From an uncultured Actinomycetota bacterium (GTDB lineage Bacteria; Actinomycetota; Actinomycetes; JAHEKZ01): a stretch of DNA of 64,000 nucleotides. The position numbers and the translations under genes were made by a program. Position 1 is the stretch's first letter; each line of letters opens with the position of its first letter. The notes beneath the pieces were generated by a model. That model worked only from the letters and a program-made list of their open reading frames with translations, had not been told where the DNA came from and searched no databases. This document shows positions 25,461-38,454 of this stretch, one piece after another. Location of the stretch: NCBI GenBank assembly GCA_963706045.1, contig CAVPLY010000008.1, positions 13,966 through 77,965 of the forward strand. Reading direction: 5' to 3'.

Positions 25461-26522
25461 ATGCGCCCACGGGACGCGCCTATCCTCGCCCCTGTGCCTG
25501 CGCAGCCTCCGTCGACCGCCCAGCCTGTGCTGCGGCTCGTGGACCGAACGCCGCAGGTGAGTGCTGACGACTTGGTGGCCACGCTGGTGCCGCCGCCGCT
25601 CTTTGCCGGCGAGTCATTCGCCACCTACCAGCCGGACGCCGAGCAGCCCACCCAGGCCGCGGCTGTCGCAGCCCTTGAGGTTTTCACCGCGCGGATCGCT
25701 GCACCCGCACCCGAACGATCGTGGTGGCGGCGCGCCCCAGCGCCGCCGGAAGGCCGCGCGGGGATCTACCTCGACGGGGGGTTCGGGGTGGGCAAGACAC
25801 ATTTGTTGGCGTCGCTGTGGCATGCGGCACCGGGTCCGAAGCTCTTTGGAACCTTCGTCGAGCTGACGAACCTGGTGGGGGCCCTGGGTTTCGCTGACGC
25901 CGTTGAACGTTTGGCCAGTCACCGACTTGTCTGCATCGACGAGTTCGAGCTTGACGACCCCGGTGACACCGTCTTGATGTCGACGCTGCTGCAACGACTC
26001 ACCGAGGCGGGCGTCATGTTGGCCGCCACCTCCAACACGCTTCCCGACCGCCTGGGCGAGGAGCGCTTCGCTGCCGCCGACTTTCTCCGGGAAATCCAAG
26101 GGCTCTCGGCGCATTTCGACGTCGTCCGGGTCGAGGGTCCTGATTTTCGGCATCGCGGGGCGACTGTGGCACCCGGCCCTGCCGCTGAATGGCAGCTCGT
26201 CGAGGCCGAACGCTCGGGAGCCTCCGTCGCCAGTGATGACTTCGACGCTCTCCTTGCCCATCTGGCAACGCTGCATCCGAGCCGGTACAGCGCGCTCGTG
26301 GCGGGTATCGAGCTGGCCATCTGGAGAGGCGTGCATGCCATCAGCGACCAGGCGGTGGCGCTGCGGTTCGTGGTGCTCGTCGATCGGCTGTACGACCGCA
26401 ACGTGCGCGTCGTGGCGGGGGGAGCGTCGCTGGGTGACGTATTCACCCCTGAGATGCTGCAAGGCGGCTACCGCAAGAAGTACTACCGAGCCCTCTCCCG
26501 TCTGGTCGCTCTCGCTCGCTAG
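25461..26522 (+). CDS. zapE: cell division protein ZapE (AFG1-like ATPase)
   Basis: Walker A GIYLDGGFGVGKTHLL and Walker B LVCIDEFELDD. Start at ATG 25461 or GTG 25494. Confidence 0.85.
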   Translation: MRPRDAPILAPVPAQPPSTAQPVLRLVDRTPQVSADDLVATLVPPPLFAGESFATYQPDAEQPTQAAAVAALEVFTARIAAPAPERSWWRRAPAPPEGRAGIYLDGGFGVGKTHLLASLWHAAPGPKLFGTFVELTNLVGALGFADAVERLASHRLVCIDEFELDDPGDTVLMSTLLQRLTEAGVMLAATSNTLPDRLGEERFAAADFLREIQGLSAHFDVVRVEGPDFRHRGATVAPGPAAEWQLVEAERSGASVASDDFDALLAHLATLHPSRYSALVAGIELAIWRGVHAISDQAVALRFVVLVDRLYDRNVRVVAGGASLGDVFTPEMLQGGYRKKYYRALSRLVALAR

Positions 26523-26884
26523 ATCAGTGTGCAGACCGGCCAGCACGTCCGGTGAAGTCTTGAGCGGCAGGACGTCGGCTGGCTGAGCGCCAACACCGGC
26601 CCTTGAGGTCGTGGGGCCGGCAGTCAGGGCGAGCGTCAGATAGCCCCGGCCGGGGGGTCGTGGCAGCGGATATTTCGGACAGTCCACCAGGCATGTCTCA
26701 CGATGGGGCGTTCGACTCAATTTTGGGAACAACGACCATGTAGACCTCGAGCCATCAGACCTCGGTCGAGCCCTTGGCCGAAAATGAGCCGGAACGGGCG
26801 ATGCCATGGCGGTCATCCTGTCGACATCATGGGTACCCGGCGGTGTTGCTCGCAAGGATCGACGTCAGCCGTATCGCGAAGACT

Positions 26885-28246
26885 ATGGGAGGGCTGATGG
26901 CCAAGTTCGTGACCACTGACGAATGGGTCGAGAAGAGCAAGGCGGCTCGAGCTCGCGTGCCGCGCAAGTCGCTGGCTGAGCACGTCGTCGCCGATGACCG
27001 GCCCGATCCCGTCGAGTTGCTGTACGCGTCCGACGCGGGCCGCGATGAAGATCTGCTCCCCCTCAAGTACGAGCGGATGGGCGTCTCGGCATTCACGTTC
27101 TATCGAGGGTTCGCGGCGATGCATGCCTACGACCTCGGCCAGGGTCAGCGCACCGACCTCGACGTCCAGCTCTGCGGAGACATGCATCTGTCGAACTTCG
27201 GCGTCTACGCATCGCCTGAGCGGAACCTCGTCTTCGACGTCAACGATTTCGACGAGACGCTGCCTGGCCCCTTCGAGTGGGACCTCAAGCGGCTCGTCAC
27301 CTCGTTCGAGATCATGGGGCGCACGAGGGGATTCTCGTCGTCGGTGACGGCCGCTGCGGTCAGACAAGTCACCGAGTCGTATCGCGTCCGCATGGGCCAG
27401 CTGGTAGCGATGAACGAGGTATCGGTCTGGTACGACCGCATGGACCAGTCTGTCCTGGAGTCGATGGCCGCCACCTTCGGTGCCAAGCGGGGGCGCAAAC
27501 AGATGGATGCACGCCTGGCCAAGGCCAAGGGCAAGACTCACGCCCGTGCGGCAGCGAAGCTGACGGACGTTGTTGACGGCCGGCGTCGGTTCCGCTCCGA
27601 ACCGCCGCTGCTGCAACCGCTGGACTACTCCGCCGACGAGACGGTGCTGCTGACTGCGGTGTTCGACCAGTACCGGTCAACGCTGTCGGCCGACCGCGAT
27701 CACCTGCTCAACCGGTATCGGATCATCGACGTCGCGCGCAAAGTGGTGGGTGTCGGCAGCGTCGGTACTCGGTGCTGGGTGCTGCTCCTCGAGGGACGAA
27801 CAACCGAAGACCTCTTGTTGCTCCAGGCCAAAGAGACTGGCCGGTCGGTGCTCGAGCCGTACGCGCGAAAGAGCGCCTTCCGGCATCAAGGCCGGCGGGT
27901 GGTTGAAGGCCAACGGCTCACCCAAGCAGCGAGTGACATCTTTCTCGGGTGGGCGAACGGCGTTGACACGAGTCGGCAGTACTACGTCCGACAGCTGCAC
28001 GACATGAAGGGCGGTGTCGAGCCTGATCGAATGCCGGCAACGAGCCTGCGACCGTACGCTGAGATCTGCGGCACCGGTCTGGCCCGAGCCCACGCGCGGG
28101 CGGGTGGGGCAACGATGATCTCGACCTACCTGGGCAGCAGCGACCGCGTGGACCGAGCTTTGGCCGAGTACGCCAAGGCGTACGCCGACCAGAATGAGCG
28201 CGATTTTGCCGCCTTTTCAGCGGCCCGGGCAGGAGCGCCTTCGTAA
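26885..28246 (+). CDS. DUF2252 domain protein
   Basis: LLPLKYERMGVSAFTFYRG, GDMHLSNFG and NDFDET motifs typical of DUF2252. Confidence 0.8.
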   Translation: MGGLMAKFVTTDEWVEKSKAARARVPRKSLAEHVVADDRPDPVELLYASDAGRDEDLLPLKYERMGVSAFTFYRGFAAMHAYDLGQGQRTDLDVQLCGDMHLSNFGVYASPERNLVFDVNDFDETLPGPFEWDLKRLVTSFEIMGRTRGFSSSVTAAAVRQVTESYRVRMGQLVAMNEVSVWYDRMDQSVLESMAATFGAKRGRKQMDARLAKAKGKTHARAAAKLTDVVDGRRRFRSEPPLLQPLDYSADETVLLTAVFDQYRSTLSADRDHLLNRYRIIDVARKVVGVGSVGTRCWVLLLEGRTTEDLLLLQAKETGRSVLEPYARKSAFRHQGRRVVEGQRLTQAASDIFLGWANGVDTSRQYYVRQLHDMKGGVEPDRMPATSLRPYAEICGTGLARAHARAGGATMISTYLGSSDRVDRALAEYAKAYADQNERDFAAFSAARAGAPS

Positions 28247-28256
28247 GACGGCCTCC

Positions 28257-28724
28257 CTACAAGCCGAGGTAGGACAAGTTCGGGTGGTCATCGGGCCGAC
28301 GACCAAGCGGCCAGTGGAACAGCCGTTCGTCCCCGGTGATCGACAGGTCATTGATGCTGGCGAACCGTCGCTGCATCAGGCCGTCCGCGTTGAACTCCCA
28401 GTTCTCGTTGCCGTAGCTGCGGAACCAGTCGCCCGATTCGTTGTGCCACTCGTAGGCGAAGCGCACCGCGATGCGGTTGTCGGTGAAGGCCCACAGCTCT
28501 TTGATGAGGCGGTAGTCGAGCTCGGTGGCCCACTTACGGGTGAGAAATGCGTGCACTTGGTCACGGCCCTCGGGGAACTCCGCCCGGTTTCGCCAGGTGG
28601 TGTCGGGCGTGTAGACCTGGACAACGCGGTCGGGGTCGCGGGAGTTCCAGGCATCTTCGGCCATGCGCACCTTCTGCGCGGCGGTCGCAGCGGTGAATGG
28701 CGGGAGCGGCGGCTTGGTGTCCAT
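28257..28724 (-). CDS. DUF1348 / NTF2-like (SnoaL superfamily) protein
   Basis: [20 protein letters not shown]...[24 protein letters not shown] matches the DUF1348 pattern. Confidence 0.8.
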
Positions 28725-28869
28725 CGTGGCTCCTCTGGGATGACCTGAACCTGGCCGCGGTGTCGACCGGATGCCGTCGATTCTGCCTCTCGCCGCTACC
28801 CCGATGCCAGAGGTGCGACGATGGCGCCGGCGGGCACTCCGGCTCGCTCCTCACGTCAGGAGCTTGCTC

Positions 28870-29223
28870 ATGAGCCAGGACCCAGTCGCAACCAACCCCG
28901 ACAACTACAAGGTCATCTTTGAAAACGATCGCGTCAGGGTGCTGGAGTACCGCGATACTCCCGGGCACCGGACCACGCCTCATGACCATCCGGACAGCGT
29001 CATGTACACCCTGAGCACGTTCCGGCGCCGTCTCTACGCCGAGGATGGTCAGACCCGCGATGTCGACATCGAGTCGGGCACGACCGGTTGGCTGCCGGCT
29101 CAGCGCCATGCTGGTCACAACATCGGTGACAGTGAGACGCACGTCATCTTCGTTGAGCTGAAGGACACCCTGGGCGCTGCCGAGGACGACGCTGGGCAGG
29201 TGGGCCCGACGCTTGGTGGCTGA
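28870..29223 (+). CDS. cupin-domain protein
   Basis: ATG at 28870. NYKVIFENDRVRVLEYRDTPGHRTTPHDHPDSVMY...HAGHNIGDSETHVIFVELK is a cupin metal-site pattern. Confidence 0.7.
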   Translation: MSQDPVATNPDNYKVIFENDRVRVLEYRDTPGHRTTPHDHPDSVMYTLSTFRRRLYAEDGQTRDVDIESGTTGWLPAQRHAGHNIGDSETHVIFVELKDTLGAAEDDAGQVGPTLGG

Positions 29224-29226
29224 AGC

Positions 29227-29392
29227 GGACCACCGCTGTCGCCCAGATTCCCGGTGAGCTCTAGTCATTCTGGGTCGGTGCGAACGGAGGAATACTCCAC
29301 GGCACGTCACCCATTCGGCAGCGGAACGTTCACTCTCTGAGACCGATACCTCTGATGCGAGGCTGTTGGAGCGTCGCCCTGGGAGGTGGAAG
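29227..29392 (+). promoter_or_regulatory. conserved upstream region / putative 5' leader of peptide cassette 1
   Basis: About 165 nt that aligns block by block with 29797..29961 (ggaccac, gatt(t)ccc, ctagtcatt, gtcgg, aacgga, cgtcaccc.ttcg.cagcgga, gggaggtg-RBS). Confidence 0.55.
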
Positions 29393-29503
29393 ATGAAGAA
29401 CGTCAAGGCACAGGTAGTCGTCTCGGTGCTCGGGAGTACCGCCACGATCCTCACGCTGGTGTCGGTCGTTGGTGCCGGTACCAAGTGGCAGCTCGGTCTG
29501 TAA
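29393..29503 (+). CDS. small hydrophobic cationic peptide, type A (36 aa): MKNVKAQVVVSVLGSTATILTLVSVVGAGTKWQLGL
   Basis: GGGAGG RBS 7 nt upstream of the ATG. Four paralogs nearby differ mainly at synonymous sites. Confidence 0.7.
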   Translation: MKNVKAQVVVSVLGSTATILTLVSVVGAGTKWQLGL

Positions 29504-29514
29504 GGGGAGGCGAC

Positions 29515-29619
29515 GTGAAGAACATCAAGGCTCAGGTGGTCGTCTCGGTGCTCGGGAGTACCGCCACGATCCTCACGCTGGTGTCGGTCGTTGGTGCCGG
29601 TACCAAGTGGCAGCAGTAG
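29515..29619 (+). CDS. small hydrophobic cationic peptide, type A (34 aa): MKNIKAQVVVSVLGSTATILTLVSVVGAGTKWQQ
   Basis: GTG start with an AGGGGAGG RBS, 11 nt after the previous stop. Near-identical to peptide 1. Confidence 0.7.
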   Translation: MKNIKAQVVVSVLGSTATILTLVSVVGAGTKWQQ

Positions 29620-29627
29620 GAGGCGAC

Positions 29628-29732
29628 ATGGAAAACGTCAAGGCTCAGGTGATCGTCTCGGTGCTCGGCAGCGCCGCCACGATCCTCACGCTGGCATCGG
29701 TGATCGGTGCCGGCAAGAAGTGGGCTCACTAA
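29628..29732 (+). CDS. small hydrophobic cationic peptide, type B (34 aa): MENVKAQVIVSVLGSAATILTLASVIGAGKKWAH
   Basis: ATG with a GGAGG RBS, 8 nt after the previous stop. Its C-terminus GAGKKWAH is shared with the peptide at 30074. Confidence 0.7.
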   Translation: MENVKAQVIVSVLGSAATILTLASVIGAGKKWAH

Positions 29733-29751
29733 GTCACAACTGTTGTGGTGA

Positions 29752-29787
29752 TTCGCGCCAGTCCCCGCCCAACGGGGCTGGCGCGAA
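29752..29787 (+). terminator. strong GC hairpin closing cassette 1
   Basis: ttcgcgccag-t-ccccg / cccaa loop / cgggg-ctggcgcgaa: a 15-bp stem with one bulge, 20 nt after the stop. Confidence 0.65.
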
Positions 29788-29796
29788 CGCATGTTC

Positions 29797-29961
29797 GGAC
29801 CACTGAGACCACCCGATTTCCCAGGGCGTCCTAGTCATTTCGAGTCGGCACCAACGGAGTGAACCCGCCACTGAGCGTCACCCGTTCGCCAGCGGAGTGT
29901 TCGCGAATCGTGGCCGAGACTGAGGGAGGAAATGTCGACGTCCCACCTCGGGAGGTGAGTT
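29797..29961 (+). promoter_or_regulatory. conserved upstream region / putative 5' leader of peptide cassette 2
   Basis: Duplicate of 29227..29392 with the same ordered conserved blocks, ending in a GGGAGGTGAG RBS. Confidence 0.55.
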
Positions 29962-30066
29962 ATGAAGAACGTCAAGGCCCACGTGGTCGTCTCGGTTCTC
30001 GGAAGCGCCGCGAGCGTTGCCGCGCTGGTGTCGGTGGTCGGTGCTGGTACTAAGTGGATGAGGTAG
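29962..30066 (+). CDS. small hydrophobic cationic peptide, type A (34 aa): MKNVKAHVVVSVLGSAASVAALVSVVGAGTKWMR
   Basis: Diverged from peptide 1 by many synonymous changes (gca/gcc, gta/gtg, ggg/gga, agt/agc, acc/act) and conservative replacements. Confidence 0.7.
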   Translation: MKNVKAHVVVSVLGSAASVAALVSVVGAGTKWMR

Positions 30067-30073
30067 GGGAGAC

Positions 30074-30181
30074 ATGGAGATCATCGAGGCACAGGTTGTG
30101 ATCTCAGCGCTCGGTAGCTCCGTCACGATCTTGTCCCTGGCATCAGTCATGATTGCCGGCAAGAAGTGGGCTCACCTTTAG
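30074..30181 (+). CDS. small hydrophobic cationic peptide, type B (35 aa): MEIIEAQVVISALGSSVTILSLASVMIAGKKWAHL
   Basis: ATG 7 nt after the previous stop, with a GGGGAG RBS. Type B C-terminus. Confidence 0.7.
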   Translation: MEIIEAQVVISALGSSVTILSLASVMIAGKKWAHL

Positions 30182-30215
30182 ATCGCGACAACTAGGTCAC
30201 AACAACAATCACCGC

Positions 30216-30249
30216 TCGCGCCGGTCCCGACACATCGGGGTCGGCGCGA
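30216..30249 (+). terminator. GC hairpin closing cassette 2
   Basis: tcgcgccg-gtcccg / acacat / cggggt-cggcgcga, homologous to the cassette 1 hairpin. Confidence 0.6.
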
Positions 30250-30272
30250 ACGTGTGTAACGGAAGACTCGAT

Positions 30273-30298
30273 GTGGTGGGCGATACTGGAAGAAAACC
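30273..30298 (-). repeat. displaced 3'-end fragment of tRNA-Val(GAC); distal att-like direct repeat of the island
   Basis: gtggtgggcgatacTgga is 17/18 identical to 41565..41582 (gtggtgggcgatacAgga). Similarity extends to aacc, giving 21/26. Confidence 0.75.
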
Positions 30299-30355
30299 GG
30301 GGACGAAGCTGACTCATCCCGCCCGGCGCTGGAGCCCGAATCGGCTGCTGACCCG

Positions 30356-30789
30356 ATGCATGACAAGGAATGCCGCACACTGTTCCGCAGACTGGCACGA
30401 CTTTGGCACCCCGACTTCGCCACCGATGAAGATGACAAGACGCTTCGTCACGCGATGATGGCTCGGATCAACGACCTCTACAAGACCCGGGACCAGAAGG
30501 TCTGCGGCGCCTCTGGGATCAGGGTGCCTCGGCGCTGACTGACGCCGGCCTTCCTGAACTTGAGGCGCTCCGGGAGCGAATCATCAAAGTGAGTGCGGAC
30601 CTTGAGGAAGTCCGGAGTCACATCGAAGAGCTTCTCGAATCACCACTGGAGCAACTCAGGGTGGATCTTGACGAGGCCCGAATGCAGGGAAGGGACCTCT
30701 TCGCCGAGCAGGCCGCGGAGGCTGACGCTGAGATCGACCAACTTCTCGAGGCACTTCACGATCTTGCTGACTCCGTCCAACACGAGTAG
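30356..30789 (+). pseudogene. J-domain (DnaJ-like) protein with frame break near 30488-30493
   Basis: FRRLARLWHPDFATDEDDKTLRHAMMARINDLYKTRD carries the HPD motif. Continues in another frame as EGLRRLWDQGASALTDAGLPELEALRERIIKVSADLEEVRSHIEELLE... (ORF 30589..30789). Confidence 0.6.
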
Positions 30790-30929
30790 TCCTCACAAAG
30801 ACCACCACGCGCGCAGGGCTCTATGAACTGAACATGGCTGGTCAAACGTCAGATGCCCAACCTGTTCAGCAGCCGGTCAACCTCGCTGTCCTGGCCACTC
30901 CACCGTCGGAGTTCGGCCTTCAGAGCTGA

Positions 30930-31637
30930 GATTGTCTCCCTGGCGTTGGCCAATTCCCGCAGGATCGATTGGGTGTGGGCAGCGACGGCTGCGACACCCG
31001 CGCCGAAGTCCTCATCGCCGAGTCCCTGAAACGGGTACGGACAACCTCCGGCTGCTACGTCCGCACCGGGAAGTGGTTCTCCAAGTACGACGGCCTCACC
31101 TTCAAACGGGCCACCAACCTCGACATCGACCACATGGTGCCCCTCGCCGAGGCGTGGGGGTCCGGGGCGAAGAAGTGGAACTCCAGCACCCGGGGCCGGT
31201 TCTCCAACGACCTGGCCTACCGGTACTCACTGATCGCGGTCAGCGCCTCCAGCAACCGGTCCAAGAGCGACAGTGACCCGTCTGAGTGGATGCCACCGCG
31301 CAGGAAGTTCCACTGCGACTACGCCAAGCAGTACACCGCCGTGAAGTAGCGGTGGAACCTGAAGGTGAACAAGGCCGAGCGCACCAAGCTTCGCCGCACC
31401 ATCAAGTCCTGCAGCGACAAGCGCATCCTCAAACCCCACCGAGCCGACATCAACACCGGCAGCTCAGGCGGTGGCGGTGGTGGTGGTCGGTGTGACCCGA
31501 ACTACGCCGGCGCGTGCATCCCCATCGTCAACTACGACCTCGACTGCTCCGACATCCCTGACCGCAACTTCCGCGTCGTCGGCAGAGACATCCACGGCTT
31601 CGACGGCGACGGCGACGGGATCGCCTGCGAGACGTAG
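30930..31637 (+). pseudogene. DUF1524/HNH-type nuclease fused to an Excalibur Ca-binding domain; N-terminus missing and in-frame TAG at 31347-31349
   Basis: GSDGCDTRAEVLIAES...LDIDHMVPLAEAWGSGA...SNRSKSDSDPSEW...YTAVK-stop-RWNLKVNKAERTKL...DGDGDGIACE. Both halves are in the same frame. No signal peptide or start codon lies upstream (stop at 30927). Confidence 0.7.
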
Positions 31638-31687
31638 AGCCTTGCACGAATACCTTCCTGAGAACATTGATCCTGCGTCCGCTGCTT

Positions 31688-32101
31688 CTAGTTGACCCTC
31701 CAGGCGGTGCGGTCAATGGTGATCGTCGAGGGGTCGCCGCTTCCCCAGTACCACCATTGAGGCACCTGTAAGAAGGGGGCGACATAGTCGTCTAGTGCTG
31801 CAGGATTGAGTGTCACATTGAAACCTTTGTGCAAGATGATTCGCTGATTGTCCATGTTCCCGAAGTAGTAGTCGCGCAGCCCGGGTTCCCTTTGCCCAAC
31901 CGTCGGATCCACCGGAATCCATCCCACTCCCTGAAGGTAGAACTCCGCCCACACGTGAGTCTGCTCGACCCCTGAGATCGCCCAGTGGCCGACAACGGGG
32001 CGTGCGGGGATCCCCGATGCGCGGGCAACGGCAACAAATAGTGCCGCGTAGGCTCCGCACTCTCCTCGGCCCGTGGCCAGCAGGCTTCTTGCGCCGTCCA
32101 C
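31688..32101 (-). CDS. transglutaminase-like cysteine protease core, short (137 aa, possibly N-terminally truncated)
   Basis: GECGAYAALFVAVARASGIPARPVVGH...HVWAEFY...GWIPVDPT is a Cys-His-Asp transglutaminase-core pattern. Only 46 nt separate it from the upstream gene. Confidence 0.6.
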   Translation of the reverse strand: MDGARSLLATGRGECGAYAALFVAVARASGIPARPVVGHWAISGVEQTHVWAEFYLQGVGWIPVDPTVGQREPGLRDYYFGNMDNQRIILHKGFNVTLNPAALDDYVAPFLQVPQWWYWGSGDPSTITIDRTAWRVN

Positions 32102-32147
32102 ACTCCGGCATCAACTCTGAGAGGGAAGTCTCCCGGTCCCTTCGGTC

Positions 32148-32843
32148 TCAGCCGTTGACCTGGGCGAGGTAGGCCTCGGTGAAGTCGCGCACCGCAGACT
32201 TGTCGGGCCCCATGGAAATGCCAACAGTGCCGTCGTGGTGCCAGGCGTAGGCGGCGACATCGCCGTCGTCCTCGACCGTCACGACTTGTTCGCCACCGAT
32301 GGTCTCGGTCGTGACAGTTCCGCCAGCGGATGCCACTCCTCCGGCGAAGCCCATGAGTATCTGCTCGGGTTCGTAGCCGGGTGTGTTCTCGACTGCAGGG
32401 TTCACCGTGGCCAAGAAGAGCAGGGCGTCAGGTTGGTCCGCACCTGACATCACCTGGTGACCGGAGGTTGCCAGGTAGAAGTCACCACTACCGTCGGGCA
32501 TTACCGCGGCTGCCTGGTCGTTGCCCTCGCTGAACCCCCGCTGAAATTCCTGGCTCAGGGCAGAGAATTCGCCGGTCGGGTTCTCGTAGGCGTAACCCGG
32601 AACCGATGTCAGCGCCGGTTCATCAGCTTCGGCGGTGTGCGCGTTGGTCAGAGACGGTTCGCTGCCGCCCAGCAGGAGGAGGTAGGCGCCGGCTGCCAGG
32701 ACACCGGCGAAGGCCAGCCCCGCCAGCCCCAGAATCGTCCACAATCGAATGCTCTTCTGTAGTGCACTCCGGGGCGGGATGTGTTGCTCTGCGGACGGGA
32801 TGCCGTCGGGGGTGAGGGGAGGATTCGGGGTCAAGGTTGACAT
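32148..32843 (-). CDS. membrane-anchored hypothetical protein, paralog of 37123..37815
   Basis: MSTLTPNPP..., one TM helix, then NAHTAEADEPALTSVPGYAYENP ... WHHDGTVGISMGPDKSAVRDFTEAYLAQV. The same blocks occur in the 37123 gene. Confidence 0.6.
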   Translation of the reverse strand: MSTLTPNPPLTPDGIPSAEQHIPPRSALQKSIRLWTILGLAGLAFAGVLAAGAYLLLLGGSEPSLTNAHTAEADEPALTSVPGYAYENPTGEFSALSQEFQRGFSEGNDQAAAVMPDGSGDFYLATSGHQVMSGADQPDALLFLATVNPAVENTPGYEPEQILMGFAGGVASAGGTVTTETIGGEQVVTVEDDGDVAAYAWHHDGTVGISMGPDKSAVRDFTEAYLAQVNG

Positions 32844-33155
32844 GTCACACCCACCTTCACGAAGGGGCATATCGATCCAGGCTCAGTGTCATCTCCGGTG
32901 CGGCGTTCCCGGTAGGGGCCATGGTCCCGGTGGTGCGGACTCGACCACTCCTGCTGATCACACGGCATCTAGAACCGTTCAGCGCACCGGAAGCGCCGGC
33001 TTCGTGCCATAGAAGGTGGGTCCTTCGTCGGGAGGTACTCGGCCATCGCTGAGGGGGAGTCAGCCTTGATGGAGATCGGTGGTCTGACGTGTCGGCGAAG
33101 GGGCCCGGCGGTGCTTCCACGCCGTCGAACTCCGCAGGTCTCGGGTGCCCGCGGG

Positions 33156-34298
33156 CTAGGTCGATACGGAGATCAAAGAGGCGAACTGCCGGAACATCTT
33201 CTCGCTTGCCTCGGGATCCGCTGTGTCGCCCCAGGAGTACACCACGACACCCCGCCCACCGATAACCGCCGCTCCCGCTGTCAGGGACAAGAGGCTGCCT
33301 TCGCTGCTGTGGTCGACCATCGATGCAACCTGCCAAGTCACGCCACCGATGTTTCGCGCACGGTGCTGGGCTGAGGTCCCACCACGTTCGTCCACGGAGT
33401 CCATCAGGCCGAGGATCACGGACTCGGGGGAGAGCGGGGACGACGACGACACGAGGACGAGCGACGCGGGGGGCACGCCGTCGAACCAATCACAGTCAAG
33501 GTCACAAGTGCCGCGCGCGCGCTCCCAGCTCGTGGGGAGAGCCGATTGGAGGCCGTTGTGAAGTCTCACGGACCTCCATGGATCGGTAGGTGCCACCAAG
33601 GGTGCAGGAGACGCCATTGGGTCGAAGTCCAAGATGGTGTGGACCGTCATCCGGTGGCCCAACGTCGTCATCGTCACTCCACCGACGAGTCGTACAGGAG
33701 TTCCGTCTCCGAGGACCATGACTCGCTGGTTCAGCGTGACGTCGTTGGCCGTTCCCTTCAGGTGGAGTGCCCGGATGGCGGAGGGTCCGGACAGGGTCCT
33801 TGTCAACACCTGCACCTGCTGGTCCTGCCAGGTCATGCTCTTGCCCAAGCGCAGGGGAGCGGCGGAGTCGACTGCTGCCATGGTCAGGGCAAGGCTGCTC
33901 CCTTGACCTTCTCGCTGCTGCCGAATCCAGGGGCCGCCAGCAGTCTTCTGGTAGGTGACGCCTCCGACGATCACGATGGATTGGCGCCCGATCTCGGAGG
34001 CTGTCATGTCCATCTCCATGTCACGACCGGTCATGTGCCCACTTCCCCGGGCTGTCATGTCTTCGCCCAGGAAAGTCATAGTCATCGACAGATCGAAGTC
34101 GGCATCGAAGCCGTCCCGCAGCAGCTCCGAAGCGGTGGCTGCTACGTCAACGGTCGCAGATGGAGATGGTGACGGTGCATCCGCAGCACCCGGTCCGGGG
34201 GACCCGTTGGAGCAGGCCCCTGTGCCGAGGGCAAAGGCAAACAGCACGGCTGCGGAGGTCGAGGGGGAGTGGGTGAGCCGTTCAGCGAAGCGCAGCAT
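33156..34298 (-). CDS. hypothetical lipoprotein
   Basis: Lipobox FALGTGAC followed by a Pro/Ser linker and a 330-aa domain. No family recognised. Confidence 0.55.
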   Translation of the reverse strand: MLRFAERLTHSPSTSAAVLFAFALGTGACSNGSPGPGAADAPSPSPSATVDVAATASELLRDGFDADFDLSMTMTFLGEDMTARGSGHMTGRDMEMDMTASEIGRQSIVIVGGVTYQKTAGGPWIRQQREGQGSSLALTMAAVDSAAPLRLGKSMTWQDQQVQVLTRTLSGPSAIRALHLKGTANDVTLNQRVMVLGDGTPVRLVGGVTMTTLGHRMTVHTILDFDPMASPAPLVAPTDPWRSVRLHNGLQSALPTSWERARGTCDLDCDWFDGVPPASLVLVSSSSPLSPESVILGLMDSVDERGGTSAQHRARNIGGVTWQVASMVDHSSEGSLLSLTAGAAVIGGRGVVVYSWGDTADPEASEKMFRQFASLISVST

Positions 34299-34392
34299 GG
34301 CGGGCCTCCTTCACGCGCATTCACTTCATCAGTGGGCGGCGCTCGTGGCCAGAGGACTTGGTCCCCCGGCGTGCTGCTGAGCCCGAGCCGCG

Positions 34393-34488
34393 TCAGTCCG
34401 TCAGCGCCTGGCGCAGGCTGATCTCGCCCTTGGGGTCGAGCTCTCGCGTGAGGATGAACCCGAGTCGGGCGTACAGGCCAGGGTTCCA
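34393..34488 (-). pseudogene. C-terminal remnant of a GNAT acetyltransferase (~32 codons)
   Basis: The minus strand reads WNPGLYARLGFILTRELDPKGEISLRQALTD-stop, a typical GNAT beta-strand/tail, with no intact upstream ORF. Confidence 0.4.
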
Positions 34489-34543
34489 CCTTCGCCCAGC
34501 ATGTGGCTGGTGAGCAGCTCGGTCCCTTATCCCTGCTCGCCCG

Positions 34544-36277
34544 TCAGCGGTTGTCCTGGCAGGTCACCTGTTGGGCAGGGAGGGTGTCGTGCAGAAGATA
34601 ATCGACGAAAAGGTCGTTGAGGCACTCATGTCGGAACCTCGCCAGGGGAGCGTGCTCGTTCCCCAACCAGGTAATCAACGGGGAGTCGAGCTGCTCGGCT
34701 GACGTCACGGCCACCTGGTACGGAGTCGTGGACTCGTCCTTGGATCCGATAATCATCACTGGGGTTCCGCTCTCGTTTGTCCAGGTTGGTCGGTGCGGAG
34801 GCGGATCCGGGATCAGTGGACTGTCGAACGCGGCCCACGACCAGTCGTTCCCGGGGTGCTCGGGGTAGTAGCGAAACTCCGGGTCTCCGGTCTGGAGACG
34901 CCATAGGAACGGAGCCGCGTGCTGGAAGCGGTGGTCGAGCGCGTCGATCTCGGCGTGGCTGTCCAGCTCGCGTAGGTCTACGTCCAGCCCGTTAACCATC
35001 GCCCTGATCTCGAGGCTATTGTCGCGAGCAAATGCCTGCGGGTCGTAGGGTTCGCCGTTCTTGAGATTGCGGAGCATCTGCTGGACGTCGTAACCGTCGC
35101 GGTCGAAGGAGAGGTACTCGAAAAGGCCGTTCCACCGATGCTTGATGAGTGCGTCCAGGCCCTGGTTGAACGTCTTCTGAACCCGGTCGGTGTCTCTGTA
35201 TGTGAGGGCAAGCAGACCGTGCACGAAGGCATACTCGGAGCTGAGCCGGAGCCGTGGGTCTCCAGGGAACGGCTCGAGCCCGACGAAGCCAGCGAGTTGG
35301 TCGTTCTCACCCCACTGCCGGATTTGCAGTAGCTTGCCCCGGACCTCTGTGGGCGTGAGCCCTTTGGCCTCTGCATAACCGTCAACGAGCCGGAGGACCT
35401 GCTCCTCGGTCGCGCGCACCTCCACCAACTGTTGCGCATCGGTCTCCCAGCTATCCCCTGTTGGTGAATCGAGCACCAGATGTCCGACGTGGTGCGGGTA
35501 GGTGCGCAGGTACTCTGCACCGATCGTCGTCCCATAGGAAGAGCCCAGGAAGTTCAGGTCAGACCGGTTGGTGACTGCCCGACGCATCTCCTCAAGGTCG
35601 TGGACGACACTCGAGGTTCCCAACGTCCACCAGGCTGGATTCCGCCCCTCGCAATCCCGCTGGAAGTCATCGAACGACTCCTGCAACTCCTCGGCCTCCT
35701 GCAGGTTCGCTGGAGTGAGCTCCCACTCCCAGTAGGAGGCGAAGTCCAGTTCGTCGGAGCAGCGAATGGGATCTCCGGATATCGGCTGCGAATGCAGCAC
35801 CCCCCGCGGATCAAAACCGACTATGTCGTAGGCGCTGCGAACCCTAGCGGGGAAGGGCTGCTGTTGAACCGTTTCGATGCCAGACGCGCCAGGGCCGCCA
35901 GGGTTTGTGAAGAGGGTTCCCTTGCTGCCCCGCTTCCCGGTGGCGGGCAGCCGCATCATGGCGATTGCGAAGTCTGGCAGGTCTGACTCGGATCCGTAGA
36001 CCGCCGGGACTAGCAGCATTGAGCAGTCCACTTCATCAGGTTCGAAAGATCCTGCGGGGTGCTTGACGAAGTAGTCGTCGGGGCACGGGCCCCACTCCAA
36101 CTGGGTAGTGGTGAGGGTGGAGAGGTTAGTTGGAGTCGGAACGCCCACTTCTGCTTCTTTGCCACCCGGCGCGCAAGCTGTGAGCATCGACCCGGCCAGG
36201 AGCAGGCCCAAGCAGGCGGGTTGGAGGGCCTTGGCCGACCACCCACGCCAAGCCAGGAGTGACCGATCGGGCGCCAT
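34544..36277 (-). CDS. secreted alpha/beta hydrolase of the tripeptidyl-aminopeptidase (TAP) family, lipoprotein-type signal
   Basis: FTNPGGPGASG, VGFDPRGV and the nucleophile elbow GSSYGT. N-terminal LLLAGSMLTAC lipobox. Confidence 0.8.
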   Translation of the reverse strand: MAPDRSLLAWRGWSAKALQPACLGLLLAGSMLTACAPGGKEAEVGVPTPTNLSTLTTTQLEWGPCPDDYFVKHPAGSFEPDEVDCSMLLVPAVYGSESDLPDFAIAMMRLPATGKRGSKGTLFTNPGGPGASGIETVQQQPFPARVRSAYDIVGFDPRGVLHSQPISGDPIRCSDELDFASYWEWELTPANLQEAEELQESFDDFQRDCEGRNPAWWTLGTSSVVHDLEEMRRAVTNRSDLNFLGSSYGTTIGAEYLRTYPHHVGHLVLDSPTGDSWETDAQQLVEVRATEEQVLRLVDGYAEAKGLTPTEVRGKLLQIRQWGENDQLAGFVGLEPFPGDPRLRLSSEYAFVHGLLALTYRDTDRVQKTFNQGLDALIKHRWNGLFEYLSFDRDGYDVQQMLRNLKNGEPYDPQAFARDNSLEIRAMVNGLDVDLRELDSHAEIDALDHRFQHAAPFLWRLQTGDPEFRYYPEHPGNDWSWAAFDSPLIPDPPPHRPTWTNESGTPVMIIGSKDESTTPYQVAVTSAEQLDSPLITWLGNEHAPLARFRHECLNDLFVDYLLHDTLPAQQVTCQDNR

Positions 36278-36283
36278 GGTGAC

Positions 36284-36925
36284 CTACACCCCCTCCGGCA
36301 TGTGGTCCCACATCCACTTTGAGACTCGCTGCGTTTCCGTCCACTCGGATGGATCGATCTGCCCTGTCCGTTCCGCTCCGACCCCCCAGAAGACGAATGG
36401 GGCCAAGAAAAGTGCGGCGACCAGCCAGAAGGCGTCGCCGACAGCGACGGTCGCACTGGACAGGAGGAGGCAGGCCCAGAAGCTGATACAGATGCGTCGC
36501 CAACGCCGTTGCGGGATGCGACCCAGTGTGCCGCGCACTTCAGGTGTTGTTGCCTGGGTTGGGTCGGCGGGAGTGTGCAAGGTGGGGTCAGTTGGTTCCG
36601 ACGTCGACGTTGCCGTGTCGACCTGGGCTAGTTGCTCGTCGAGGAAACGATCGACCTCGTCCTCGTCGTAACCGCGATTCCGGCGCCCTTGGGTTGTGAA
36701 GACGACGTTGCGGATCTCGTCCGCCGTTCGCTCGCCAATAGTGTCAATGAAGGCGTCAACCTCGGCGATGTTGTAGCCCATCCCCTTCTTGCGTGCGACG
36801 GTGAATCTTTGGTCGAGATGTTGGTCTGGGACCGGACCGCCGGTTGGGACTGCGTCGCGTAGGCGTGCGAGTGTCTGCTCGGGTGTCTCGGTGGTCGGCT
36901 GGCGATGTCTGTGAATGAGGCTCAT
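36284..36925 (-). CDS. DivIVA-domain protein with two DivIVA N-terminal repeats and a C-terminal membrane segment
   Basis: GYNIAEVDAFIDTI and GYDEDEVDRFLDEQL repeats, then hydrophobic ICISFWACLLLSSATVAVGDAFWLVAALFLAPFVFW. GGGGAGGG RBS before ATG 36925. Confidence 0.7.
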   Translation of the reverse strand: MSLIHRHRQPTTETPEQTLARLRDAVPTGGPVPDQHLDQRFTVARKKGMGYNIAEVDAFIDTIGERTADEIRNVVFTTQGRRNRGYDEDEVDRFLDEQLAQVDTATSTSEPTDPTLHTPADPTQATTPEVRGTLGRIPQRRWRRICISFWACLLLSSATVAVGDAFWLVAALFLAPFVFWGVGAERTGQIDPSEWTETQRVSKWMWDHMPEGV

Positions 36926-37122
36926 GGCACGGCCCTCCCCACAATCATGAGCAGCCGGCTTGTCCCTCGCTAGGGCCCTTCGCCCCGACCACGCACCTGA
37001 CTGACGCGCCCTGTCCGAAGTGTCTGTCGTGGTTGTCGGGACCAACGCCTCTGTCGATGCGCCCTGCCAGGTCATAGGACTGCGACTGGAGGCGTCTGCC
37101 CCCTGAGCAGTGGAGGTGGGTC

Positions 37123-37815
37123 ATGAGCACCGCAACTCCAATCCCCCCGCCAGTTGCATCCGATGATCCGCAGTTGGCTGCGACACCCGCGGAGCCCCCC
37201 AGGAGGAGCCAGGGCCGGCTCTGGCTGATCCTCGGGGGCCTCACGGTGCTGTTCCTTGCGGCTGTTGGCATCACCATTGTGTTCCTCTCCGGCGCGGACG
37301 ACACCGCCGTTGTCAACGAGCACACCGCAGAGGCGACCGAACCCTCCTTCATCGAGGTGCCGGGCTACGTGTACACGGATCCGCAAGCTGGGGATGTAGC
37401 CGACTGGGACGCCACGATGACGCAGACGAACGAGAAGATGGCCGACCTGCTGGGCTCTGACTTCGCAGACACCCCGTGGGTGACCTCCTGGTCGCTGCAC
37501 GATGTCGACCGTGCGACGGAGGGGAGAGACTTCCTCTGGCTGGGGCTGATCGAGATCAACCCGCAGTTCGCGAACGTGCCCTCCTGGGACACGGAGTTCT
37601 TCATCACCTCGGTGGCGGGTGACATGACCACCGGCGCGACCACCCTGTGGATGGACACCATCAACGATGAACCTGTCGCCGTCGGCTGGGAGGCCACGGA
37701 GGGCTGGACGATGTTCGCGTGGCTCCACGAGGGCACCGTGAGCGTGGCGGCCGGACCCGACGAGAGTGCCGTCCGCTCCTTCGTCGAGGCCTACATCATC
37801 GAGCAAAACAGCTGA
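37123..37815 (+). CDS. membrane-anchored hypothetical protein, paralog of 32148..32843
   Basis: MSTATPIPPP..., one TM helix, NEHTAEATEPSFIEVPGYVYTDP ... WLHEGTVSVAAGPDESAVRSFVEAYIIEQ. Confidence 0.6.
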   Translation: MSTATPIPPPVASDDPQLAATPAEPPRRSQGRLWLILGGLTVLFLAAVGITIVFLSGADDTAVVNEHTAEATEPSFIEVPGYVYTDPQAGDVADWDATMTQTNEKMADLLGSDFADTPWVTSWSLHDVDRATEGRDFLWLGLIEINPQFANVPSWDTEFFITSVAGDMTTGATTLWMDTINDEPVAVGWEATEGWTMFAWLHEGTVSVAAGPDESAVRSFVEAYIIEQNS

Positions 37816-38278: not shown

Positions 38279-38454
38279 GAGGTGGCCGAGTGAGCCTTCT
38301 ACAACCTCCCCCCGCGCGTAGTCCGGTCCCTCTGAAATAACTCTCAGGAGGACGAAGATCCCGGCAACTCTGCCGCATGAGGTCTTAGCCTGCCCGGATG
38401 CCCGAGGCCGCCAACCCGCCGGGCATGGCCGTCCGGACGCCGACAGAGATTCCG

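What the first reader, a model, noticed from the sequence alone, without database searches (positions are those of the whole stretch)
29227..30255. Tandemly duplicated operons of five 34-36 aa hydrophobic cationic peptides in two sequence types (A: ...GAGTKWxx, B: ...AGKKWAH)
Two adjacent cassettes have the same layout. Each has a conserved ~165-nt upstream region, then type A peptide gene(s), then a type B peptide gene, then a strong GC hairpin. Cassette 1 spans 29227-29796 and carries A, A, B. Cassette 2 spans 29797-30255 and carries A, B. Every peptide gene has its own strong Shine-Dalgarno sequence, and intercistronic gaps are only 7-11 nt. The cassette 1 and cassette 2 copies differ mostly at synonymous codon positions or by conservative V/I/L/A/S/T swaps, which argues for selection on the protein. 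Each peptide has Lys residues at both ends, a roughly 22-residue core rich in small residues (VLGSxATILTLVSVVGAG), and a Trp near the C-terminus. There is no signal peptide, no Cys, and no adjacent modification enzyme, transporter or immunity gene. I recognise no named family. The layout resembles leaderless multi-peptide bacteriocins (aureocin A70 and garvicin KS type, 30-34 aa tandem genes), PSM-like peptides or tandem type I toxins, but the match is only architectural. The A/B pairing kept in both cassettes suggests a two-component membrane-active or membrane-assembling unit.
Basis: partly seen in the sequence, partly recalled or inferred. Interest (0 to 1): 0.85.

Follow-up and report, generated by a model that had tools for sequence, protein, structure and literature searches.

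The report
Paired membrane micro-protein gene cassettes
Two tandem cassettes encode five 34-36-residue membrane-helix peptides of two conserved types (A then B), an unnamed family limited to uncultured soil and sediment actinomycetes that probably forms A/B complexes in the cell's own membrane and shares a control sequence with c-di-GMP signalling genes.

Summary
Five short ORFs lie at 29393-30181 in two cassettes (A-A-B and A-B). Each cassette has conserved upstream boxes, a strong Shine-Dalgarno site per gene and a GC hairpin at its end. The genes are under purifying selection (dN/dS 0.10 against an ortholog; 0.11 for B across 26 loci).

About 60 related loci exist in uncultured Actinomycetes MAGs and soil or sediment metagenomes, and none in viral contigs. 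In nearly all complete loci an A gene is followed directly by a B gene.

No Pfam, NCBIfam, PHROG, PADLOC, PDB, Rfam or literature match exists. Databases call them "hypothetical protein".

The peptides are plain transmembrane helices, not amphipathic. A and B carry opposite flank-charge bias, which suggests antiparallel insertion.

No transporter, immunity or modification gene is conserved nearby, so bacteriocin, PSM and RiPP readings are weak. A type I-toxin-like role stays open.

New here:
- An invariant TCACCC box, followed by a sigma-D-like promoter candidate, precedes every cassette.
- The same box precedes GAF and EAL-GAF genes.
- In one conserved locus type the pair abuts a membrane GGDEF-EAL gene.

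Best reading: a new paired membrane micro-protein module. Its function is unproven.

The parts
29261..29268 (+). Box 1 (CTAGTCAT) of cassette 1
   Evidence: Conserved 44-47 nt upstream of box 2 in 19 distinct type II-IV cassettes. No conserved RNA pairing between the two boxes (0 pairs), so it probably acts at the DNA level.
29307..29319 (+). Box 2 (TCACCCATTCGGC) of cassette 1
   Evidence: TCACCC core invariant, 81-118 nt (mostly 84-113) before the first peptide start codon, in all upstream regions that could be read. The full 13-mer is present in 20 of 24 genome loci. The same box precedes EAL-GAF and GAF genes in related loci.
29323..29347 (+). Candidate ECF (sigma-D-like) promoter of cassette 1: GGAACG, 15 nt, CGAT
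   Evidence: Scores 9/10 against the published sigma-D consensus GTAAC(A/G)-N16-CGAT (PMC13537577, PMC6338062). Across 34 diverse box-downstream regions the score exceeds random windows (>=8/10 in 24% against 1.4%; Mann-Whitney p = 9e-11). A sequence match only, and the hypothesis was formed after seeing the data.
29393..29503 (+). A1 peptide gene (36 aa, MKNVKAQVVVSVLGSTATILTLVSVVGAGTKWQLGL)
   Evidence: ORF. Protein identical in ortholog L025 despite 7 synonymous changes. AlphaFold2 predicts a single helix over residues 2-35, pLDDT 80.
29515..29619 (+). A2 peptide gene (34 aa, GTG start)
   Evidence: 97% nucleotide identity to A1. The ortholog uses ATG. 8 synonymous and 1 non-synonymous change against L025.
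29628..29732 (+). B1 peptide gene (34 aa, ...LASVIGAGKKWAH)
   Evidence: Carries the B-type diagnostic residues: Ala at W-9, Lys at W-2, Ala at W+1. B type gives median dN/dS 0.11 over 26 loci.
29752..29787 (+). Terminator-like GC hairpin of cassette 1
   Evidence: 14-nt arms, 93% complementary, -33.4 kcal/mol. A stable hairpin (z < -2) follows the B gene in 48 of 54 distinct loci.
29831..29838 (+). Box 1 (CTAGTCAT) of cassette 2
29878..29890 (+). Box 2 (TCACCCGTTCGCC) of cassette 2
   Evidence: One mismatch to the 13-mer; 84 nt before the A3 start codon.
29894..29918 (+). Weaker promoter-like dyad of cassette 2 (GGAGTG, 15 nt, CGAG)
   Evidence: Same position relative to box 2 as in cassette 1 (read). 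A poorer match to the consensus. Inference only.
29962..30066 (+). A3 peptide gene (34 aa)
   Evidence: The exact protein is found on 12 public contigs. In 5 of the 6 contexts shown it is the only A gene of a single A-B cassette behind the same unnamed 134-135-aa gene. 8 synonymous and 0 non-synonymous changes against L025.
30074..30181 (+). B2 peptide gene (35 aa, most diverged copy)
   Evidence: ORF. 6 synonymous and 8 non-synonymous changes against L025, the least constrained of the five. Net charge 0.
30216..30249 (+). Terminator-like GC hairpin of cassette 2
   Evidence: 15-bp stem, -33 kcal/mol. Direct-repeat partner of the cassette 1 hairpin (D2).

Best explanation
The region holds two copies of a self-contained expression module: upstream boxes, a promoter, an A gene (or two), a B gene and a terminator hairpin. 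It encodes a lineage-restricted pair of single-pass membrane micro-proteins.

Shown:
- The ORFs are coding and under purifying selection.
- A followed by B is conserved across about 60 loci.
- Each peptide is essentially one hydrophobic 22-residue helix flanked by Lys and Trp.
- A and B share an almost invariant C-terminal module, L-x-S-V-V-G-A-G-x-K-W.
- A and B differ at fixed diagnostic positions and in which flank is more basic.

Inferred:
- Both peptides insert into the producer's cytoplasmic membrane without a signal peptide.
- A sits N-in and B sits C-in, so the two are antiparallel.
- They pack through their Ser/Thr/Gly-rich faces into A/B hetero-oligomers.
- Whole-cassette duplication raises dosage.

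Transcription appears to depend on a conserved TCACCC box with an adjoining sigma-D-like ECF promoter. In related genomes the same box also precedes GAF and EAL-GAF genes. In one conserved locus type the pair directly abuts a membrane GGDEF-EAL gene followed by DUF5317.

The most likely role is therefore a membrane or envelope component, or a modulator, co-regulated with c-di-GMP turnover. It is less likely to be an exported weapon. What the A/B complex actually does (channel, membrane stabiliser or partner of the GGDEF-EAL sensor) is not resolved.
For: Coding and selection:
- dN/dS is 0.10 against ortholog L025 (36 synonymous, 12 non-synonymous changes).
- B type has median dN/dS 0.11, with variability by codon position of 0.09, 0.02 and 0.36.

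Pairing:
- A is directly followed by B in nearly all complete loci from 24 genome and 34 metagenome hits.
- Diagnostic residues are W-9 Val (29/35 A) against Ala (44/45 B), and W-2 Thr/Val/Ile (35/35 A) against Lys (44/45 B).

Membrane helix:
- Core mean Kyte-Doolittle hydropathy is about 2.0 and the hydrophobic moment is 0.08-0.16, against 0.44 for PSM-alpha3.
- AlphaFold2 predicts one helix over residues 2-35.

Opposite charge bias: the N flank is more basic in 80% of A peptides and the C flank in 87% of B peptides.

Autonomous module:
- Neighbours are unrelated across locus types.
- A hairpin follows B in 48 of 54 loci.
- Whole cassettes are repeated in the window (x2), L001 (x3) and L038 (x2).

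Core-like conservation: several paralogous loci occur per MAG, at conserved syntenic sites.

Regulation:
- The box is invariant.
- The box also lies upstream of EAL-GAF and GAF genes.
- The sigma-D-like dyad is enriched (consensus from PMC13537577 and PMC6338062).

Link to c-di-GMP genes: the arrangement arginase, A, B, GGDEF-EAL, DUF5317 recurs. The only canonical in-frame start for the GGDEF-EAL ORF lies inside the Lys-Trp codons of B.
Against: - There is no expression, localisation or interaction data. The organisms are uncultured.
- Orientation is inferred only from the positive-inside rule, on peptides with Lys at both ends.
- The promoter assignment is a consensus match that fits type I, type II and B-only loci well but type III and IV loci poorly (scores 5-6 of 10).
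- The link to c-di-GMP genes is seen in related loci, not in this window. Here the neighbours are an unnamed 150-aa ORF (cupin-like by eye, no Pfam hit) and gene fragments.
- Small hydrophobic peptides in tandemly duplicated, terminator-bounded modules are also the signature of type I toxins.
- The TCACCC box resembles an anti-Shine-Dalgarno sequence, and RNAalifold pairs it with the Shine-Dalgarno site in type I leaders. That would fit toxin-style translational repression.
Confidence: 0.45

Rival explanations
1. Type I toxin-like membrane peptides. Each cassette would be a toxin module whose translation is held off by mRNA structure (the anti-Shine-Dalgarno-like TCACCC box pairing with the Shine-Dalgarno site) and/or by an unseen antisense RNA. 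On release, the peptides would depolarise the producer's own membrane, giving dormancy or abortive infection.
For: - Peptides are under 40 aa, each a single hydrophobic helix with basic ends, similar to LdrD in hydropathy and hydrophobic moment.
- Whole modules are tandemly duplicated, intergenic and bounded by terminators. These are features used to find type I loci (PMC2887945).
- RNAalifold on 23 type I leaders pairs UGUUC-CCC of the box with GGGGAGCG of the Shine-Dalgarno site, 8 base pairs that are never broken.
- Box-to-Shine-Dalgarno duplexes average -10.3 kcal/mol, against -6.8 for other Shine-Dalgarno regions.
Against: - There are two distinct ORFs, kept as an A/B pair with complementary charge bias, each with a strong exposed-looking Shine-Dalgarno site. 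Known type I toxins are single ORFs.
- No Pfam hit to the Ldr, Hok, Fst, TisB or Ibs families.
- None of the 8 box-to-Shine-Dalgarno pairs shows a compensatory double change. An own-against-swapped duplex test is not significant (p = 0.13).
- No 14-nt or longer complementarity between flanks and leader that would suggest a divergent antitoxin.
- The box also precedes ordinary enzyme genes.
- In one locus type the pair runs straight into a GGDEF-EAL gene.
Confidence: 0.25
2. Exported leaderless multi-peptide bacteriocin or PSM-like surfactant. A and B would be released without processing and act on the membranes of competitors or at surfaces.
For: - Tandem genes of 34-36 aa without leaders, each with its own Shine-Dalgarno site, and with Lys and Trp residues.
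- Leaderless bacteriocins have been predicted in Actinomycetota (PMC11580447).
Against: - No ABC exporter, PH-domain or immunity gene is conserved next to any locus type. Such genes accompany the leaderless clusters described in PMC11580447.
- The peptides are uniformly hydrophobic: hydrophobic moment about 0.1 and 22 uncharged residues in a row. They have one Trp, and B2 has no net charge.
- No sequence match to bacteriocin models.
- The loci sit at conserved syntenic positions in every related MAG and are under strong purifying selection. Strain-variable accessory weapons do not usually behave this way.
Confidence: 0.1
3. Precursors of a modified peptide (RiPP) whose tailoring enzymes are encoded elsewhere in the genome.
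For: Short, Ser/Thr/Gly-rich, multi-copy precursor-like genes (sequence).
Against: - No modification enzyme, protease or transporter lies in any of about 60 contexts.
- No Cys, and no split into leader and core regions.
- In the B type the whole length is conserved. In both types the C-terminal module is nearly invariant.
Confidence: 0.03
4. Not protein-coding: a repeated RNA or DNA element that happens to keep ORFs open.
For: None beyond the short ORF length.
Against: - Third-codon positions vary 4-15 times more than first and second positions.
- A1 and A3 proteins are identical in the ortholog despite 7-8 synonymous changes each.
- Shine-Dalgarno sites lie before every ORF.
- No Rfam hit.
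Confidence: 0.01

Closest known systems
Chromosomal type I toxins (Ldr, TisB, Ibs, Zor and AapA families)
   Same: Hydrophobic single-helix peptides under 40 aa. Self-contained intergenic modules with a long leader and a terminator. Whole modules tandemly duplicated (PMC2887945).
   Different: Two different ORFs conserved as a pair. No detectable homology. No antitoxin RNA identified. The upstream box is shared with enzyme genes. In one locus type the pair abuts a GGDEF-EAL gene.
Leaderless multi-peptide bacteriocins (aureocin A70, garvicin KS, enterocin L50) and PSM operons
   Same: Several tandem 20-45-aa genes without leader peptides, each with its own ribosome-binding site (my own knowledge; PMC11580447 for the class).
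   Different: Those peptides are amphipathic, cationic and soluble, and their genes sit with ABC exporter, immunity or PH-domain genes. These peptides are plain transmembrane helices (hydrophobic moment about 0.1) with no such neighbours, at conserved chromosomal sites.
Small membrane proteins that modulate or complete membrane complexes (MgrB-PhoQ, KdpF, CydX; actinobacterial SafA-sortase, PMC9282373)
   Same: Single-pass micro-proteins of 30-50 aa that act inside the producer's own membrane. In type I loci the pair sits directly in front of a polytopic GGDEF-EAL gene.
   Different: Those are single genes tied to one partner operon. Here a hetero-pair occurs in 2-6 autonomous, duplicated cassettes per genome, mostly without any partner gene. 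No homology.
Paired opposite-topology small membrane proteins (paired SMR transporters such as EbrAB)
   Same: Two adjacent homologous genes whose products carry opposite Lys/Arg bias, implying antiparallel assembly (my own knowledge; bias measured).
   Different: SMR proteins have four helices and a known transport function. These have one helix and no known activity.
Sigma-D (ECF40-type) envelope regulons of Corynebacterium and Mycobacterium
   Same: The promoter-like dyad G(G/T)A(A/G)CG-N15/16-CGA(T/C) after the box resembles GTAAC(A/G)-N16-CGAT (PMC13537577, PMC6338062). Sigma-D targets are envelope functions.
   Different: The match is by sequence only and is weak in some locus types. The additional invariant TCACCC box just upstream is not part of the described sigma-D motif.

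Membership tests
Leaderless (class IId-type) multi-peptide bacteriocins | Sequence similarity to a described leaderless bacteriocin family | tested here: not met
   No Pfam or NCBIfam hit at E <= 10 other than chance ClpP-like matches below cut-off. No PDB hit.
Leaderless (class IId-type) multi-peptide bacteriocins | Dedicated ABC exporter, immunity or PH-domain genes in the cluster | tested here: not met
   Neighbours in the window and in four locus types are metabolic or signalling genes. None is shared across locus types.
Leaderless (class IId-type) multi-peptide bacteriocins | Cationic amphipathic, Trp-rich soluble helices | tested here: not met
   Hydrophobic moment 0.08-0.16, an uninterrupted 22-residue apolar core, one Trp, and B2 net charge 0.
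Leaderless (class IId-type) multi-peptide bacteriocins | Secretion and antimicrobial activity | not testable with these tools
   Needs synthetic peptides or a producer culture.
Type I toxin-antitoxin toxins | Small (under 60 aa) hydrophobic peptide with one predicted transmembrane helix | tested here: met
   33-36 aa, core Kyte-Doolittle hydropathy about 2.0, one helix in AlphaFold2.
Type I toxin-antitoxin toxins | Antisense or partly complementary small-RNA antitoxin | tested here: inconclusive
   No 14-nt or longer inverted complementarity between flanks and leader and no Rfam small RNA. A cis-antisense RNA cannot be seen without strand-specific transcript data.
Type I toxin-antitoxin toxins | Homology to a known toxin family (Ldr, Hok/Gef, Fst, TisB, Ibs, TxpA and others) | tested here: not met
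   No Pfam or NCBIfam hits.
Type I toxin-antitoxin toxins | Toxicity on overexpression | not testable with these tools
   Experimental.
Phenol-soluble modulins | Amphipathic alpha-helix and a Pmt-type ABC exporter | tested here: not met
   Hydrophobic moment about 0.1 against 0.44 for PSM-alpha3. No exporter nearby.
RiPP precursors | Co-located tailoring enzyme, protease or transporter, and a leader/core division | tested here: not met
   None in any context. In the B type conservation spans the whole peptide. In both types the C-terminal module is nearly invariant.
Known cis-regulatory RNAs (Rfam) | Match of the ~165-nt upstream region to a covariance model | tested here: not met
   0 matches at E <= 1 over 28000-32000. 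Only tRNAs in the whole window.
Sigma-D-type ECF promoters | GTAAC(A/G)-N16-18-(C)GAT at a fixed place upstream of the gene | tested here: inconclusive
   Cassette 1 scores 9/10. Family-wide enrichment over random windows gives p = 9e-11, but type III and IV loci score only 5-6 of 10. No transcription start site data.

The most novel reading that the evidence does not exclude
The A/B peptides are a previously unrecognised two-component, antiparallel membrane micro-protein system. It would belong to an envelope and c-di-GMP regulon defined by the TCACCC box. It would work physically with the polytopic GGDEF-EAL/DUF5317 proteins to which it is translationally coupled in the ancestral locus, for example as the membrane-state sensing or gating element of that enzyme. 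The extra stand-alone cassettes would tune its dosage.
Probability: 0.2. Interest if true: 0.75.

Novelty: new variant of a known kind. Interest (0 to 1): 0.6.

Why it matters
Bacterial micro-proteins under 50 residues are badly under-annotated, and very few have been characterised in Actinomycetota.

This family is clean and strongly selected. It has an obligate two-gene architecture, a nearly invariant C-terminal motif (LxSVVGAGxKW), a predicted antiparallel pairing and its own regulatory box. The box also marks GAF, EAL and GGDEF genes.

If the link holds, it would be a rare case of single-helix peptides wired into c-di-GMP or envelope signalling. It would also give a defined regulon to test in a soil lineage known only from metagenomes.

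If the peptides instead prove to be toxins, they would be, as far as I know, the first two-peptide type I-like module and among the first described in actinomycetes.

Tried and rejected
- The search for homologous proteins refuses queries under 40 aa. A concatenated A1+B1 query then found only 6 unnamed proteins.
- Rfam found nothing in the region.
- Pfam, NCBIfam, PHROGs, PADLOC and PDB gave nothing meaningful. The only hits were weak chance ClpP-like matches, which explains one public copy mislabelled 'ClpP protease subunit'.
- The viral contig scan found no relatives.
- Literature searches for DUF5317, for type I toxins in Actinobacteria, and for the peptide motifs themselves found no prior description.
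- RNA structure between box 1 and box 2: RNAalifold gives 0 pairs. I rejected a structured upstream RNA.
- Box 2 as an anti-Shine-Dalgarno element: the pairing is possible, but there are no compensatory changes and the own-against-swapped duplex test gives p = 0.13. This is left as a minority view.
- I tried to read box 1 or box 2 as sigma-70, SigH/R, SigF/B, WhiG or sigma-54 promoter elements, and as BldD, GlnR, PhoP, MtrA or CRP sites. I did this by eye and none fitted consistently.
- The sigma-70 scan found no promoter in 29100-30400.
- Minus-strand mini-ORFs between the boxes are not conserved, so I rejected them.
- A conserved protein partner was sought by all-against-all BLAST of the neighbours. 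Only the type I synteny group shares neighbours.
Full report
**1. The observation**

Five short ORFs lie on the + strand:

| Gene | Coordinates | Length | Note |
|---|---|---|---|
| A1 | 29393-29503 | 36 aa | ATG start |
| A2 | 29515-29619 | 34 aa | GTG start |
| B1 | 29628-29732 | 34 aa | |
| A3 | 29962-30066 | 34 aa | |
| B2 | 30074-30181 | 35 aa | |

- The repeat finder groups them as one 99-nt family of five copies, 70-97% identical.
- The intercistronic gaps are 11, 8 and 7 nt. Every start codon is preceded by a GGAGG- or GGGAG-type ribosome-binding site.
- Each cassette ends in a GC hairpin of about -33 kcal/mol.
- Two corrections apply. The two ~165-nt upstream regions are only 62% identical, with conservation concentrated in short boxes. 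B2 has no net charge.

**2. The ORFs are genes under selection**

- Within the window, paralog pairs give dN/dS 0.18-0.42.
- A metagenome contig, L025, is an ortholog of the whole five-gene locus at 89% nucleotide identity. Over the five genes it differs by 36 synonymous and 12 non-synonymous changes (dN/dS 0.10). A1 and A3 are identical at the protein level despite 7-8 silent changes each. B2 is the least constrained copy.
- Across 26 B-type genes from different loci the median dN/dS is 0.11. Variability at codon positions 1, 2 and 3 is 0.09, 0.02 and 0.36.
- A non-coding repeat is excluded.

**3. Distribution**

- A scan of one genome per species (185,579 species) found 24 loci in about 10 MAGs, all labelled uncultured Actinomycetes or Actinomycetota. 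Several loci occur per MAG.
- JGI metagenomes gave 34 more loci. Viral contigs gave none.
- A profile search of 1.84 billion representative proteins gave only 20 hits at E <= 1e-3. Eighteen are short proteins of 30-103 aa carrying the peptide, many with a wrongly called start or stop. The other two are long repeat proteins.
- All five window peptides are present in public gene calls, unnamed or as 'hypothetical protein'. One A3-like copy carries a spurious ClpP label.
- There is no match in Pfam, NCBIfam, PHROGs, PADLOC, PDB or Rfam.
- The motif strings occur in no paper of the searchable library.

**4. The A/B pair is the unit**

- Scanning all loci shows an A-type gene directly followed by a B-type gene in nearly every complete locus. 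Only a few loci carry B alone.
- The retrieval patterns needed just one peptide to match, so the adjacency is not an artefact of the search.
- Both types share an almost invariant C-terminal module, L-x-S-V-V-G-A-G-x-K-W. They differ at fixed positions:

| Position relative to Trp | A type | B type |
|---|---|---|
| W-9 | Val (29/35) | Ala (44/45) |
| W-2 | Thr/Val/Ile (35/35) | Lys (44/45) |
| W+1 | Met/Gln | Ala/Gly |

- B is highly conserved over its whole length. The N-terminal half of A differs between locus types.
- In the window's locus type, A and B are otherwise nearly alike (76% identity) yet keep these same diagnostic differences. That argues for selection on the A/B distinction itself.

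**5. What the peptides look like**

- Residues 8-29 form an uncharged stretch with mean Kyte-Doolittle hydropathy of about 2.0. The helical hydrophobic moment is 0.08-0.16. That is comparable with the type I toxin LdrD and far below PSM-alpha3 at 0.44.
- AlphaFold2 predicts one continuous helix over residues 2-35, mean pLDDT 80.
- Ser, Thr and Gly residues cluster on one helical face (my reading of the sequence). This is typical of helix-helix packing or pore lining.
- The flanks carry opposite charge bias:

| Type | N flank, mean charge | C flank, mean charge | More basic flank |
|---|---|---|---|
| A | +2.2 | +1.2 | N in 80% |
| B | +0.9 | +2.2 | C in 87% |

- 32 of 45 B peptides have an acidic residue at positions 2-4, against 3 of 35 A peptides.
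- By the positive-inside rule this predicts A with its N-terminus inside and B with its C-terminus inside, an antiparallel pair. This is inference, not demonstration.

**6. The cassette is autonomous**

- Neighbouring genes differ between locus types.
- In the window and its relatives the upstream synteny is AFG1 ATPase, DUF2252, DUF1348, then an unnamed 134-150-aa gene. Downstream genes vary.
- Five of the six relatives returned for the exact A3 protein have a single cassette there, made of the A3-type gene plus a 35-aa gene. The five-gene A-A-B + A-B arrangement recurs in L064 and in ortholog L025. Cassette 1 of the window is therefore a lineage-specific duplication, and A1/A2 is a further recent one (97% identity).
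- L001 has three cassettes and L038 has two.
- A stable hairpin (z < -2) follows the B gene in 48 of 54 distinct loci, with many different stem sequences.
- No ABC transporter, immunity-like, PH-domain or modification gene recurs anywhere.

**7. Regulatory signals (new here)**

- Every readable upstream region carries TCACCC(R)TTYGGC, with the TCACCC core invariant. It lies 81-118 nt (mostly 84-113) before the first start codon.
- In locus types II-IV a second box, CTAGTCAT, lies 44-47 nt further upstream. RNAalifold finds no conserved pairing between the two boxes, which points to DNA-level function.
- Directly after box 2 comes a dyad: GGAACG-N15-CGAT in cassette 1, CTAACG-N16-CGAC in type I loci, and GTAGCG-N16-CGAT in B-only loci. 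It resembles the sigma-D ECF consensus GTAAC(A/G)-N16-CGAT, defined by ChIP-seq in M. abscessus (PMC13537577) and by start-site mapping in C. glutamicum (PMC6338062).
- Scored against that published consensus, 34 diverse box-downstream regions beat random windows:

| Score out of 10 | Box-downstream regions | Random windows |
|---|---|---|
| >= 8 | 24% | 1.4% |
| >= 9 | 12% | 0% |

  The Mann-Whitney p is 9e-11, though the sequences are not independent and I formed the hypothesis after seeing the data. Types III and IV fit poorly.
- An alternative reading is that the box acts in the mRNA as an anti-Shine-Dalgarno sequence. RNAalifold pairs it with the Shine-Dalgarno site in type I leaders. But no pair shows a compensatory double change, and an own-against-swapped duplex test is not significant (p = 0.13).

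**8. Link to c-di-GMP genes (related loci only)**

- The most widespread locus type (type I) sits in a polyamine-catabolism cluster. The gene order is arginase-family gene, A, B, a 717-aa polytopic GGDEF-EAL protein, DUF5317 and saccharopine dehydrogenase. An EAL-GAF gene follows on the opposite strand.
- The GGDEF-EAL reading frame is open from a GTG (ATG in L006) that lies inside the Lys-Trp codons of B.
- In the loci I read codon by codon (L005, L013) there is no other canonical in-frame start before the conserved PRRPxWAL membrane segment. Synonymous differences between orthologs show that segment is coding.
- B and the enzyme therefore look translationally coupled, with the post-B hairpin lying in the first ~20 codons of the enzyme. 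This is inferred.
- The same box occurs about 125-150 nt upstream of the EAL-GAF gene in at least six loci. A box-like copy precedes a small GAF-domain gene in five loci.
- The expected number of chance hits for the strict 13-mer in all sequence held is well below one (my estimate from base composition).
- The peptides therefore share a cis-element with c-di-GMP and GAF signalling genes.

**9. Interpretation**

- The best-supported reading is a lineage-specific pair of single-pass membrane micro-proteins acting in the producer's own membrane. They are probably an antiparallel hetero-oligomer, produced from autonomous and sometimes amplified cassettes. They are co-regulated with envelope and c-di-GMP functions (confidence about 0.45).
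- The main rival is a type I-toxin-like module (about 0.25). The size, hydrophobicity, module duplication and anti-Shine-Dalgarno-like box all fit. The conserved hetero-pair, the strong ribosome-binding sites, the box shared with enzyme genes and the coupling to a signalling enzyme do not fit.
- An exported bacteriocin or PSM-like function (about 0.1) is disfavoured by the lack of amphipathicity, the lack of export or immunity genes, and core-like synteny.
- RiPP precursor (0.03) and non-coding (0.01) readings are essentially excluded.

**10. Novelty and limits**

- The family is undescribed and unnamed. It belongs to a known general kind (small hydrophobic bacterial membrane peptides) but shows an unusual, conserved two-gene design and its own regulatory box.
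- Everything beyond sequence statistics is inference: membrane insertion, orientation, A-B contact, promoter identity and physiological role.
- The c-di-GMP link is not visible in this window itself.

Noticed in passing
window 26000-42000; tRNAs at 41567-41888 (-): G+C drops to 0.61-0.65 here, against 0.67-0.69 elsewhere. The low-GC stretch ends at a tRNA-Val/Cys/Gly cluster. This could be a genomic island or a degraded region. The peptide cassettes lie in this low-GC stretch, about 3 kb from its left edge.
   Followed up: partly
window 30356-30538, 30969-31349, 31688-32101: Just downstream of the cassettes lie short ORFs that match only fragments of larger families: a 60-aa DnaJ-like piece, a 126-aa GmrSD_C endonuclease piece and a 137-aa transglutaminase core piece. 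They look like gene remnants.
   Followed up: no
L013 11668-11680 (-), L015 5955-5967 (-), L017 11889-11901 (-), L059 ~15757-15773 (-), L005 ~11713-11732 (-), L006 ~6951-6969 (-): The peptide-cassette box TCACCCGTTYGGC (or TCACCCGAACGGC) also lies about 125-150 nt upstream of an EAL-GAF phosphodiesterase gene that has no peptide genes.
   Followed up: yes
L008 ~4047-4061, L035 ~2059-2074, L024 ~755-769, L059 ~8030-8044, L017 ~4038-4052: A box-like TCACCC[AG]T[AG]TGGCGGT sits about 30 nt after an aldehyde-dehydrogenase stop codon and about 80 nt before a small GAF-domain gene. It is followed by GTAGGT-N17-CGAT.
   Followed up: partly
L013 6093-6180 and orthologs (L005, L008, L009, L015-L018, L034, L035): The post-B hairpin (GGGGAGC.GCCG....CGGCGGCTCCCC) keeps its stem through compensatory changes. 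It lies inside the open reading frame of the downstream GGDEF-EAL gene, whose only canonical start is the GTG or ATG within the Lys-Trp codons of B. This may be an attenuator between the peptides and the enzyme.
   Followed up: partly
public protein collection, cluster of A3 (P0030): One A3-like 34-aa peptide is annotated 'ATP-dependent protease ClpP protease subunit' in JGI/IMG. This is a mis-annotation that mirrors the sub-threshold chance Pfam hit of A3 to CLP_protease.
   Followed up: yes
L031, L033, L052, L054, L056: A minority sub-family has a B-type gene only (for example MKNVKAHLVCSVLGSAATVMTLVSVVGAGKKWGK, some with a Cys). Where upstream sequence could be read (all but L052), it has a box and a well-matching GTAGCG/GTAGCA-N16-CGAT/CGAC dyad. 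L052 has no TCACCC box before the gene.
   Followed up: partly
L012/L019/L021/L022/L046 upstream regions: In type III loci box 1 extends to a perfect 10-bp palindrome, TGACTAGTCA (read). It looks like a dimeric regulator site.
   Followed up: no
L059, L060: These long ENA contigs carry the type I locus with many split genes (Aldedh, DAO and GGDEF/EAL in pieces). They look like long-read assemblies with frameshift errors. P0002 (70 aa) and P0009 (49 aa) are mis-called fusions of the peptides.
   Followed up: partly
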